NCBI GenBank assembly: GCA_963702025.1 | Contig: OY969699.1 | Span: forward strand, 1,532,034 to 1,596,033 | Direction of reading: 5' to 3' | DNA length: 64,000 bases | Source: an uncultured bacterium | Lineage (GTDB): Bacteria > Babelota > Babeliae > Babelales > Vermiphilaceae | In this document: positions 1-64,000 of the stretch, piece by piece | Layout of the letters: each line of letters opens with the position of its first letter | How positions within the stretch are numbered: the stretch's first letter is position 1 | Position numbers: made by a program

Positions 1-3000
1 AGAAACAAGAAACAAAATAATTATACTAAATAACATAATGCGCTGATAAGATACTGAAAAACTCATATGCTCCCTCTTTACGCTCCCAATGAATTGTAAA
101 ATTACTTGTAAAATATCCCAACTTTTTATTCTTCACAACTGTAATTTTTCTTTTTTTTATTCGATCTAGACAAAACAATAGAAAATTAGTAATTCTTGAG
201 CATTACATTTTTTTAAAAAAGTATGGTATTAAAATGAATACAAAAAATATTTCTTTAAGAAGTCTTGGCGTCTACACTCTTATTTGCAGCCAGGCACTCA
301 TAGCCGCTCCAACGTTTGAAAAACAGTGGCAATATGCAGCATGAATATAATCGCATATGCAATTCCCTTAAAAAGCAAGGTCTGGAAGAATTAGAAGAAA
401 CACATGTGCATCCGTATTGGCAAGCCGAGAAAGAAGAAATAAGAAATTTTATATTAGGCGCACCCGAAAGCAATTTTCTAAGTAACTGGCAAATCCGTTA
501 CAATATGGTCAGAAAAGAAATGGGGGCTGCTCAAACGTATGAAATATGTTACTTGGAACATTGCATCAGCGAAAAGACAAAAAAACAACTTGCGCTTTTT
601 AAAGAAAGTGATTTCGCACAACTTGATATAGACTGTTATCAATTCAATTGTTCAAGCAATACGCTCGGACATCTTTTTTATGCTGCAAAAGTCTTGGAAA
701 ACAAAAAAGATTTACCCATTAATACTATTGTTGAATTTGGTTCAGGATATGGAAACTTGGCACATATTTTTAAAACAATTTTACCCGACTCAACTATTTT
801 CCTCATTGATTTGCCGGAAGTATTAGCAATTCAGCTTCTTTTTTTAAAAGCAACAATGCCAAATGTTCCGGTATATTTTCATTCGGAAGCATGTGCTACA
901 TACCAAGAAAAAGCGATCCATCTACTACCAATACACCTTATTAAACAACTTACTATTAATACCGATCTTTTCATTTCCACTTTTGCGTTAAGCGAATCCA
1001 CACAAACCATACAAAGATTGGTCATAAAAAATAACTTTTTTAATGCCAAAATGGTGTATATTACCGGGCAAATTGATGGCTGGGGAAATCTCGATTTTGT
1101 ATCTCACCCAATCATCATCAGCGCAGTAAAAAGCTATTGTAAAACAACGCAGTGCCAACCAATGCATTATATTTTAGGAGATCGTGTTTCATACGAAATT
1201 TTAGGCACAACGTATTAAAATTGCATAAATAGAGAGCAGTAATGAGAATAATATCAAAAATTGGGATCCAACAGCTCGGTTTTTTATTCAGCATTTTTTT
1301 TATTGCAGCACTAACGGCAAATCCCCTCGGGGCAACAACAAACCAAACCGATTTGATTATTTATTCCTATGATCGCCCCATGCAACTCTACGCGCTGCTT
1401 GAATCAATCGAAAAGTATGTCACGGGACTAGCAACTATTTCTGTTATTTACCGCACCAGTAATCACGCATTTGAAGAGGCATACAAAGAGGTTCAAATCC
1501 ACTTTACCAACGCACATTTTTTCAAACAATCACCACCGTATGATGATCTTAAAACATTAACGTGCGCATGTTTTGCCCAAGCCAAGAGCCCGTATATCCT
1601 TTTTGGCGTTGACGATATTATTGTTAAAGATTTTATTAATCTTAATGAATGCATAGATGCGCTCGAAGAATCACATGCTCATGGCTTCTTCTTTCGGCTG
1701 GGGAAAAATCTTGATTTTTGCTACGCAATGAATTGTTCTCAACCTCTGCCACTTTTAAAAAATGTCCGGCCATGCATATATTCCTGGCATTTTAATGAAG
1801 GGCTTTATGATTGGCACTATCCTCATAACCTTGATTTTACCCTGTACTCTAAATCAGATTTTGAAAATCTGATTGAATCACTCGATTATAAAACTCCCTA
1901 CTCATTAGAATCACAACTCATGGGCCATGTGGAGTATAGTAGGATTGGACTTTGTTATGAATCATCAAAGATTGTTAACTTCCCTCTTAGAGCCTATCTG
2001 AAAACTAAATTTTCTTGATAATGATTATCTGGAAGGCGAATTGCACTAATGCAAGAAAGTTAATGGATAACTTTTCATAGCGAGTGAAAATGCGCCTAAA
2101 TCGATTTATCCAAGAAAAAGTTCTTTCAACTACCCATCGTTTTAAATCTTTCTCAGAAGCAACACGAGGTTTGTTTTTCGGCTTCTTTGGAGGCATGACA
2201 GGAGTAAAATTTCTTTTGATGGCTTCGGCCTTATTTTTTTTAGAAACAAAGCCTTTATCTGTGCGAAGATAATGATTTTTGGATTGTGGTATTTGTTGTT
2301 GCAAATTATCAATAAGGCTTACAAATACTTGCGTATCATGCCGATTGCCGCTCGCAATAGTGGCTCCAATCGGGATTCCTGCTTCTTCAACAACAAGATT
2401 TAATTTTGTTCCTAATTTTCTTCGATCCACAGGACTTTTTCCTGTTTTATCACCTCCTAAAGGCGATTTTTTATGGTTAGAGTCTATTGATTGATCATGA
2501 AGAGCTAGGCCTATTTTTCGATCATAAAGCATCAAAACTGTTTTCCAAATTTTTTGAAAAGCACCCGCTCGAATAAGTTCTTTAAATCTTTGATAAATAG
2601 TTTTTGATGGGCCAAAACATAATGGCAGAGCTTCCCATTGACATCCAGTTCTTAACAGATAATACATTCCAGCTATTAATGGTTCGTTATCCACACGAGG
2701 CCGCCCTGTTTTTTTTGGCGGAATATTTGCTGCTATAAAGTTATGAAATTCTTGCAAAAGTGGTTCAGGTATGACATATTTTGATGGTATAATTTCTTTG
2801 TAATTTAAAAGCTTCATATGAAAAATCCCTCTTTGTTTGTGTTGCTACTACAAGAGGGATTGTATTTTTTCTATCTATTTTTTCAACTGCCTACAGAGTT
2901 TTCAGATAGGCTCTTAATATCGTGCAAACCGATTGGCCAAACAATTGCGATAATAATTATGGCACCACGCAATTACTCGAACTTTTTAACCAAGATCTCA

Positions 3001-63000: not shown

Positions 63001-64000
63001 ACAAGAACACATTGGGTCATTAATTTTTGCGATAGCACCTTTTTAAGCTCTTTTTCTTCCGGTTTACAGATGTTAATGGCTTGTGAAAAAAAGGTAGCAG
63101 CTTTGAGAAAGGCCTGCCCATTAAAGGGAATAACATTATAGGTAGTCGAATCTTTCAATGCGTTGATAGCCGGCAAATATCCTTGCCGTGCCGCTTGATC
63201 CAAATAGAATTCACCAAGTTTTTTTGGTTCGGATATGGCATTAACAAAATAGCGCTCCGGCATATTTGTTAAAAATGCATGCGCAGCCATTGCCGCACTT
63301 GAACTCTCCTCTTGATCCGCGTCGCCTTCATCAGCTTTTTTGATAAGCGTTTTAAGCGCCCTGTTAAAGAGCAAAACAGTATTTTCATCATTTTCATTGC
63401 TTTTATCATTGCATAGTTCCGGAAGGGCTTGCGTAGCAAGAAGCAGCAAATCATCATGATCCATGCAATATTCAATCAGTTGTTTTTTAAATAGAATGTT
63501 CGGCGTGGTCAGAGCATGTTGCATATAGCGGTGGGCCATCTGGCGATATTGGTCATTTTTTCTTTTACCATTTTTGTACAGATCGTTAAATGCGGTAAAA
63601 CTTGCCCGATGATCTTTTAGGCGCCCCACTACTCGTTCATGTATTGCAAGATCAGTAGCATGTAGGGCTACATTCTTCATCGCCAATTGCATGTCATCGG
63701 CCAATTCATTTTGCGCAACCATATCAAGAGCATCAGTTTTAGTAAATAAATCATCAAGAAATCCGATTATTTTTTTTTGATCAATATTAGTTAATGCGAG
63801 TAATTTACATCCGGCGCGAATGTGACCCTTGGCATAGGCATCAGCAAAAGTTGGGGCCGCATGCTCAATGCATTCTGCGTCAACCATCTCAAGCGCAAGA
63901 GAATAAAGCTGCCATCCACTCAGATTTTTTTTATACTCAGCAATGCAATCGCTAGCAAAAAGTTTTGATTTTACTATTTTTGCTTCTGATTTTTTTTCTT

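What a model noticed while it worked through the whole genome (the two positions that open the first line are those of the whole stretch)
1..64000. A Met-Glu motif at the end of the signal peptide marks the eukaryote-like (effector) proteins
About half of all proteins here start with a Sec-type signal peptide, and in those with ankyrin, LRR, RING/RBR, SET, UCH, WD40, Sel1/TPR or no known domain the hydrophobic core is followed, at residue 17-27, by a fixed motif (L/A/I)-x-(A/G/S)-Met-Glu-(Lys/Leu)-Pro, whereas porins, Bam/Tol/Sur, PBPs, secretins and binding proteins lack it. I read the small residue as the signal-peptidase site, so that the mature protein begins with Met-Glu: a second address label, comparable to the PEXEL/RxLR host-targeting motifs of Plasmodium and oomycetes, that sends a periplasmic intermediate on into the amoeba and gives it the N-terminus of a normal host cytosolic protein (a NatB-type Met-Glu start, safe [...]
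Evidence so far: Own hydropathy rule (10-residue Kyte-Doolittle mean >=2.2 within residues 2-31): 835 of 1617 proteins positive; with a K/R also required, 755 positive and 0 of 67 ribosomal proteins/aaRS. Met frequency per position in positives peaks at 5-9% at residues 18-23 against 1-2% at 28-40 and 2-4% in negatives. 384 positives have their first post-core Met at 16-28; around it: -3 L88/A58/I54, -1 A127/G74/S62, +1 E163 (42%; Glu is second residue in only 5% of proteins without signal peptide), +2 K79/L43, +3 P87. By class: Met at 16-28 in 83 of 98 Ank/LRR, 69 of 257 other-Pfam, 232 of 480 no-Pfam positives; strict [AGST]M[EDN] in 48, 20, 117 (Fisher Ank/LRR vs other-Pfam odds 11, p 8e-17); 0 of 17 enve The finding spans contig positions 1 to 1596033; this window holds only 1532034 to 1596033 of it. 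[...]
(Added by a program. Inside this text positions count along the whole contig: contig position 1,532,034 is position 1 of the stretch shown here. "Call 12" and the like, gene names such as g00115 and contig names such as C1 are that model's own, and its searches are not shown. The text may have been shortened before it was handed on; [...] marks where a part breaks off. The agent that wrote the report below was given it as the finding of a first reader that could run no searches.)

Follow-up and report, generated by a model that had tools for sequence, protein, structure and literature searches.

The report
Met-Glu start on secreted parasite effectors
In this bacterium that lives inside protists, the secreted proteins built to act on the host mostly begin with methionine-glutamate once their export signal is cut off, while the cell's own envelope proteins do not, which looks like a host-proof start or an address label that had not been noticed.

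Summary
The genome is a Babeliales (TM6/Dependentiae) bacterium. A site predictor blind to the +1/+2 residues puts Met at the top signal-peptidase site in 73 of 135 ankyrin/eukaryote-like proteins (3% elsewhere). Given Met, Glu follows in 101 of 165 and Pro is at +4 in 30%. Per family, 64 of 98 eukaryote-like families carry small-Met-[E/Q/N/D], against 1 of 46 envelope, adhesin or glycan-enzyme families and 1 of 18 beta-barrels. An internal start, a shared DNA module and a relic start codon were each tested and not supported. The rule appears in samples of six or seven Babelota families, not in four, though all 41 genomes searched have two secretins. Holosporales plasmid proteins mostly start with Ser, and one alphaproteobacterial patatin clade flips between Ser and Met-acidic starts. 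Best reading (0.45): a start that survives the host cytosol (Met not removable, no Met-hydrophobic degron). A type II secretion tag is the main rival (0.3). NatB is not singled out, since Asp and Asn are not enriched. Cleavage, export and function are inferred, not shown.

The parts
37608..38330 (+). Secreted protein of no known family (240 aa), the clearest motif gene in the window; 20-residue signal peptide, mature start Met-Glu-Met-Pro
   Evidence: no Pfam or NCBIfam hit; Shine-Dalgarno-like GGAGGA at 37597-37602 before the true start
37665..37679 (+). The motif codons: Ala(-1), Met(+1, 37668-37670), Glu, Met, Pro
   Evidence: read directly
50462..50704 (-). Small secreted protein (80 aa), predicted mature start Met-Asn
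44449..45030 (+). Secreted protein with Met-Ser at the predicted site; its two paralogues elsewhere have Met-Glu
57669..58217 (+). Secreted protein with a Met after the core (Met-Ala or Met-His; site unsure)
55027..57603 (+). BamA, envelope protein without the motif (internal control)
1242..31186 (.). Cluster of signal-peptide-bearing glycosyl-, methyl- and sulfotransferases and sugar-nucleotide enzymes, none with the motif (internal control)
17398..18495 (+). GDP-mannose dehydratase with a signal peptide fused where cytosolic homologues start; no Met kept at the junction
33472..34662 (-). GspF/PilC-like platform protein; the main type II secretion genes lie outside the window (contig 226-231 kb, 365-374 kb, 420 kb)

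Best explanation
The proteins are made with an ordinary Sec signal peptide. The single signal peptidase I cuts after the small residue and exposes Met-Glu (often Met-Glu-x-Pro). They then leave the periplasm, most likely through the type II system, and act in the protist. The motif is a host-proof N-terminus. A protein that arrives finished in a eukaryotic cytosol with the usual post-signal residue (Asp, Glu, Asn, Gln, Arg, Lys, aromatic) carries an Arg/N-degron. Met followed by a large polar residue is not clipped by Met-aminopeptidase and is not a Met-hydrophobic degron, and Pro at +4 may stall exopeptidases. Envelope proteins never meet this machinery and are free. Shown: position, class specificity, protein-level selection, residue classes at +2, presence of the export machine. 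Inferred: cleavage site, export, host location, the stabilising role. The role of Pro is my speculation from recalled peptidase rules.
For: +2 given Met at the blind site (n=165): large polar 150 (background 42%), small 13 (34%), bulky hydrophobic 2 (24%). This matches the rules in Varshavsky 2024 (PMC11441550, passages). Probable beta-barrels mostly start with Arg, Asp, Asn, Gln or Trp (read by eye). BC-box-like motifs in 6 of 363 Met proteins against 0 of 337 others, F-box-like in 7 of 363 against 2 of 337 (shuffles under 0.4), so the cargo works on cytosolic ubiquitin ligases. Convergence: Ser at +1 in 59% of 58 Paracaedimonas plasmid proteins against 6% of 65 in free-living controls. In one signal-bearing patatin clade whose named members are Holosporales/Alphaproteobacteria, 9 of 31 rows show Met-E/D/Q/K at a plausible site and most others Ser (by eye). 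Phytoplasmas have no outer membrane (recalled), yet the SAP54 rows seen start Met-Asp/Asn and all 24 SAP11 rows Ala/Ser/Thr, mostly before Pro, while surface Amp starts Asp/Asn/Ala/Gly (PMC8026896 supplement). Secretins and GspC are in 41 of 41 genomes whether or not the rule was seen.
Against: Degron logic alone does not predict Glu 6.7-fold with Asp 1.0, Lys 0.4 and Arg 0. 17 of 105 ankyrin proteins lack the Met, and several appear to start with destabilising residues. In G028 (f5) only 1 of 10 signal-bearing ankyrin proteins has Met, and several seem to start with Gln, Asp, Asn or His. Enzymes that need SAM, NAD(P) or sugar nucleotides carry signal peptides without it (0 of 28). Unacetylated Ser/Ala are themselves degrons in mammals. 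The outside-phylum samples are small: four plasmids of one species, one patatin clade with mostly unnamed members, two phytoplasma families. B. massiliensis grows in a vacuole (PMC4378268 passages), so a route across that membrane is missing.
Confidence: 0.45

Rival explanations
1. Second address label: after cleavage, Met-Glu-x-Pro is bound by the bacterium's type II system (GspC with its PDZ-like domain, or one of the two large secretins), which picks effectors out of about 700 periplasmic proteins. It can act together with the best explanation.
For: A complete type II set, GspC/D/D/E/F/G/H/J/K/L/M (J by position), and no TolC. The narrow Glu/Gln preference and Pro at +4 (30%) look like a binding pocket. 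Glu is coupled to Met: 100 of 164 against 26 of 272. In Plasmodium the mature xE/Q/D end decides export (PMC10653839 abstract and introduction).
Against: The machine is universal (41 of 41) but Met was at the blind site in 0 of 27 (f5), 0 of 15 (f6), 0 of 11 (f13) and 0 of 12 (f2) sampled proteins. Met-acidic starts also occur in alphaproteobacterial-type patatins and phytoplasma SAP54. The Holosporales review names type VI, not type II, as their conserved system (PMC11909080 passages). Type II substrates are not known to carry linear tags (recalled).
Confidence: 0.3
2. The start is tuned for host NatB acetylation, which then stabilises or localises the effector (Ser starts in Holosporales being the NatA equivalent).
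For: E/Q/N/D make up 135 of 165 at +2 and 23 of 30 in other families. Post-translational acetylation of new termini exists (PMC10362333 passages). PEXEL ends are acetylated.
Against: Asp and Asn are not enriched here, and His is (2.8-fold). These acetylases are mainly ribosome-bound. Ser-Pro and Ala-Pro starts in the comparators are poor substrates (recalled).
Confidence: 0.1
3. Protection inside the bacterium or vacuole: Met-Glu-x-Pro shields long unstructured tails from periplasmic or lysosomal exopeptidases, as pyroglutamate does under the Bacteroidetes Q-rule.
For: Median 63 residues between Met and the first ankyrin repeat. The Q-rule stabilises exported proteins (PMC10653852 abstract).
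Against: The Q-rule covers all compartments (PMC5837995 passages), whereas this rule skips periplasmic and outer-membrane residents.
Confidence: 0.07
4. No function: Met is the old start codon of captured cytosolic genes, or rides on a shuffled 5' cassette.
For: Paralogues share signal peptides and motif genes cluster (98 adjacent pairs against 60 expected). Small codon skews at -1 (GGC 0.52 vs 0.36; AGC 0.38 vs 0.18).
Against: 259 motif proteins fall into 147 families, 126 of them singletons. Between families, signal identity is 0.14 (others 0.13) and third-base identity 0.283 (others 0.276). Glu and Ala codons follow genome usage. Where a signal is fused at a known cytosolic start the Met is gone. 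Glu is second residue in only 4% of 110 cytosolic proteins. 29 of 38 signal-bearing homologues (mean 42% identity) keep the Met.
Confidence: 0.05
5. The Met is a second translation start giving a cytosolic form.
For: Met is a start codon, and gene callers sometimes pick it.
Against: Shine-Dalgarno of at least 4 bases before 203 of 273 true starts, 1 of 273 motif Mets and 263 of 6749 ordinary internal Mets. The -3/-1 pattern is that of a peptidase site.
Confidence: 0.03

Closest known systems
Bacteroidetes Q-rule (PMC5837995, PMC10653852)
   Same: A lineage-wide preferred residue right after the signal peptidase I site, with a proposed stabilising role
   Different: Gln, cyclised by a dedicated enzyme, in all compartments. 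Here Met plus Glu, restricted to host-directed classes, with no modifying enzyme identified
Plasmodium PEXEL mature N-terminus xE/Q/D (PMC10653839)
   Same: Cleavage exposes an end with E/Q/D at position 2 that separates exported from resident proteins; signal peptidase can make it
   Different: Eukaryote; RxL site cut by plasmepsin V; position 1 free; export by PTEX shown. Here position 1 is Met, no RxL was seen, and export is untested
Signal-peptide ankyrin proteins and type II secretion of Babela, Chromulinavorax and other TM6 (PMC4378268, PMC6561590, PMC4776705)
   Same: Same lineage, same cargo (79 of 126 and 78% of ankyrin proteins with signals; 44% of genes), two gspD copies
   Different: The passages read describe no motif at the cleavage site
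Phytoplasma SVM-signal effectors SAP54 and SAP11 (PMC8026896 supplement)
   Same: Sec-exported host-cell effectors; SAP54 rows start Met-Asp/Asn
   Different: One homologous signal family (PF12113, no match over cut-off in this genome); no second membrane; SAP11 starts Ala/Ser/Thr

Membership tests
Sec/signal peptidase I substrates | Basic n-region, hydrophobic core, small residues at -3/-1 | tested here: met
   single LepB
Sec/signal peptidase I substrates | Cleavage site confirmed by SignalP or N-terminal sequencing | not testable with these tools
   no SignalP on the machine; own rule-based predictor only
Bacteroidetes Q-rule | Gln at +1 in most substrates | tested here: not met
   +1 is Met in 56% of 105 eukaryote-like proteins; Gln 6% or less in every class
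Bacteroidetes Q-rule | Applies to all compartments | tested here: not met
   1 of 70 envelope/adhesin/glycan proteins; 1 of 18 beta-barrels
Bacteroidetes Q-rule | Dedicated periplasmic modifying enzyme | not tested
   several signal-bearing GNATs exist, none linked
PEXEL/host-targeting motif | RxL before the cut, cleaved by a dedicated protease | tested here: not met
   -3 is L/A/I/S, -1 is A/G/S
PEXEL/host-targeting motif | E/Q/D at position 2 of the mature chain | tested here: met
   129 of 165
PEXEL/host-targeting motif | Mature end needed for export to the host | not testable with these tools
   needs experiment
NatB substrates | Met followed by D, E, N or Q (N and Q recalled; acidic) | tested here: inconclusive
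   135 of 165, but driven by Glu; Asp and Asn not enriched
NatB substrates | Acetylated in vivo | not testable with these tools
   no proteomics
Type II secretion substrates | Complete machine in the genome | tested here: met
Type II secretion substrates | Secretion depends on the machine | not testable with these tools
   needs experiment
SVM signal family (PF12113) | Profile match over cut-off | tested here: not met
   0 over cut-off, best E 0.04

The most novel reading that the evidence does not exclude
Unrelated bacteria living inside eukaryotic cells (Babelota, Holosporales, perhaps phytoplasmas) have each tuned the one or two residues left by signal peptidase so that hundreds of Sec-exported effectors carry a eukaryote-type N-terminus. 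In Babeliales the same Met-Glu-x-Pro is also read by a two-secretin type II system as a linear export tag, a bacterial counterpart of the PEXEL mature end.
Probability: 0.25. Interest if true: 0.9.

Novelty: new variant of a known kind. Interest (0 to 1): 0.72.

Why it matters
It gives a simple sequence mark for the effector set of a widespread, barely cultured phylum: 273 genes here, 152 of them with no Pfam family. It makes two open questions testable: how Sec-only intracellular bacteria tell host-bound proteins from periplasmic ones, and whether host N-degron pathways shape symbiont secretomes. The parallel Ser rule in a Holosporales symbiont suggests the pressure is general.

Tried and rejected
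Nuclear localisation signals in the tails: not above shuffles (7 bipartite of 363, expected 5.8). Phylum-wide DNA pattern count (151 genomes): background is 55 per Mb and only 74 of 162 own matches are at junctions; it also misses Ser at -1, so it only shows that 10 of 150 genomes reach 80 per Mb. Atlas search with the first 40 residues: no usable hit. Atlas search with a Met-Asn barrel candidate: unnamed clusters. Position-wise conservation anchored on Met is circular at +1 and was not used. A plasmid search with a hydrolase query was a wrong pick. A phage search for GT17 starts added little. Holosporales chromosomes could not be reached, so that sample is plasmid-only. Cardinium plasmid ankyrin proteins have lipoprotein-type signals and no Met rule. 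The patatin tree is the quick one, without bootstrap. Three look-ups of earlier findings returned nothing.

Full report
Source. The window is the last 64 kb of a single 1,596,033-base contig, 39% G+C. The four named Babeliales hits to its cysteinyl-tRNA synthetase are 55-64% identical and are among the six best of 80, so the organism is placed in Babelota (TM6/Dependentiae). I called 1480 genes with my own start model.

Observation. 737 of 1460 proteins pass the hydropathy rule. To avoid circularity I wrote a cleavage predictor that sees only -1, -2, -3 and the distance from the core. Its top site has Met in 73 of 135 ankyrin or eukaryote-like proteins, against 82 of 2536 other candidate positions; 164 of 237 motif Mets fall exactly on it. 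In 65 signal-like proteins from free-living bacteria, Met was not among the nine commonest +1 residues, and 1 of 93 had small-M-[EQND]. The predictor is crude and no SignalP was available, so cleavage is inferred.

Class specificity. I scanned 640 signal-positive, non-ankyrin proteins (plus three extra window ORFs) against Pfam, found 117 ankyrin proteins with an HMM built from 55 of the 163 matches, and sorted classes by hand. The motif is in 85 of 135 eukaryote-like proteins and 1 of 70 envelope, adhesin or glycan enzymes. By family the figures are 64 of 98 and 1 of 46; with Met at the blind site alone, 56 of 98 and 2 of 46. Of 18 proteins with an outer-membrane beta-signal, 1 has it, none has Met-Glu, and two more have Met-Val nearby. 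Intermediate classes exist: 10 of 45 cytosolic-type enzymes and 8 of 32 hydrolases. Tails of Met proteins hold BC-box-like and F-box-like motifs (patterns recalled). Homologues of one LRR effector carry a Skp1/POZ domain, and some start Ala or Ser instead of Met.

What it is not. It is not an internal start: a ribosome-binding site precedes 203 of 273 true starts but 1 of 273 motif Mets. It is not one shuffled cassette: 147 families, and no excess signal or silent-site identity between families. It is not a relic start: in the window's GDP-mannose dehydratase the solved cytosolic homologues begin at query residue 19-20, where no Met remains, and 0 of 28 such enzymes have the motif.

Anatomy. 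Given Met at the blind site (n=165), +2 is large polar in 150, small in 13 and bulky hydrophobic in 2 (background 42, 34, 24%). Glu is 6.7-fold, His 2.8, Gln 1.9, Asp 1.0, Asn 0.6, Lys 0.4; Pro is at +4 in 30% against 8% in non-Met proteins. [quoted passage not shown] Met plus a large polar residue avoids both. The strong Glu and Pro preferences go beyond these rules and are the best argument for a specific receptor.

Route. There is one signal peptidase I, no TolC (genome 95% complete), and a full type II set, with a GspC carrying a PDZ-like region. At least two secretins and a GspC homologue are in 41 of 41 Babelota genomes searched; the two gspD copies are already reported (PMC4776705 passages).

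Range. In sampled stretches (10-165 ORFs per genome, many chosen around ankyrin genes), Met is at the blind site in f1 (four genomes, 3 of 15 to 8 of 13), f3 (5 of 20, 3 of 19), f11 (5 of 38), f12 (2 of 3), f16 (7 of 32), f20 (6 of 27) and f7 (2 of 13). It is not seen in f5 (0 of 27), f6 (0 of 15), f13 (0 of 11) or f2 (0 of 12); f4 and f14 samples are too small. In G103, 24 of 32 signal-bearing ankyrin proteins have small-Met. These are samples, not whole proteomes.

Outside the phylum. On about 440 kb of the four plasmids of Ca. Paracaedimonas acanthamoebae (Holosporales), Ser is at +1 in 59% of 58 scored proteins. They include LRR, NB-ARC, patatin and RNase III proteins, but also a conjugation protein, so class specificity there is unproven. 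A patatin from those plasmids has no homologue in this genome; its signal-bearing clade (31 rows, quick tree, SH-aLRT 99) mixes Ser starts with 9 Met-E/D/Q/K starts, one in a protein labelled Alphaproteobacteria, the rest unnamed. In the supplement of PMC8026896 (parts 1 and 11 and a word search), the SAP54 rows seen start Met-Asp/Asn, SAP11 rows Ala/Ser/Thr, and Amp rows Asp/Asn/Ala/Gly; sites read by eye. Cardinium plasmid ankyrin proteins use lipoprotein signals.

Mechanism. I favour a host-proof N-terminus (0.45) over a type II export tag (0.3); the two can coexist. The descriptive claim, a class-specific Met+1 rule at the signal peptidase site, I put at about 0.85. Against my reading stand the Glu-over-Asp skew, the ankyrin proteins without Met here and in f5, the cofactor-dependent enzymes without it, and the unexplained step across a vacuole membrane.

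Prior art. Ten library searches found no description of this motif. Seen as passages: PMC4378268, PMC6561590, PMC4776705, PMC5911502, PMC11909080, PMC5837995, PMC10362333, PMC11441550, PMC8026896, 10.1101/014324, 10.64898/2026.03.27.714854. Abstract and introduction: PMC10653839. Abstract: PMC10653852. Listing only: PMC12172432. The supplements of the Babelota papers were not read, and subscription papers are not in the library, so a brief earlier mention cannot be excluded.

Verdict. A real, selected, class-specific feature; a new variant of post-signal residue rules such as the Q-rule, working perhaps like the PEXEL mature end but not a member of either. Interest 0.72.

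Noticed in passing
L164, L195-L203 (Ca. Paracaedimonas acanthamoebae plasmids): A Ser+1 rule: 59% of 58 scored signal-peptide proteins begin with Ser, often Ser-Pro, followed by acidic runs.
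   Followed up: partly
window 1242-31186: About 20 normally cytosolic enzymes (two GDP-mannose dehydratases, UDP-GlcNAc epimerase, glycosyl-, methyl- and sulfotransferases) carry signal peptides, implying glycan synthesis outside the cytoplasm with an unknown cofactor source. Six GT17 paralogues at contig 498-503 kb do the same.
   Followed up: partly
L100:10445-17793 and L304:395-1498: Two unusually long secretins (838 and 878 aa) flank gspL/gspM-like genes in one operon behind a PDZ-bearing gspC; one secretin has a lipoprotein signal. Conserved in 41 of 41 genomes searched.
   Followed up: partly
L142:5282-7111, L099:61-3492, L110:16858-18192: A ribonucleotide reductase large subunit, a PPDK-type domain protein and a NADAR protein carry signal peptide plus Met-Glu/Gln, suggesting secreted nucleotide and ADP-ribose enzymes.
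   Followed up: no
L089:12779-17623, L090:61-4684: Tandem family of no-Pfam probable outer-membrane beta-barrels with Cys-containing N-terminal stretches, next to three secreted GMC oxidoreductases.
   Followed up: no
L155:17250-18914, L156:64-16526: Cluster of six DUF5122 beta-propeller proteins, one with a long collagen repeat, and a BclA-like protein just upstream of the window.
   Followed up: no
window 50976-53345, 41810-43801, 60177-63887: Three large ORFs (789, 663 and up to 1236 aa) without a Pfam hit at E 1e-6.
   Followed up: no
contig 182482-182838 and 192053-192477: ARAGORN calls two tmRNA genes; the first has an odd tag and may be false.
   Followed up: no
L354 (Cardinium plasmid): All four ankyrin genes have lipoprotein-type signal peptides, a different solution for Sec-exported ankyrin proteins.
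   Followed up: no
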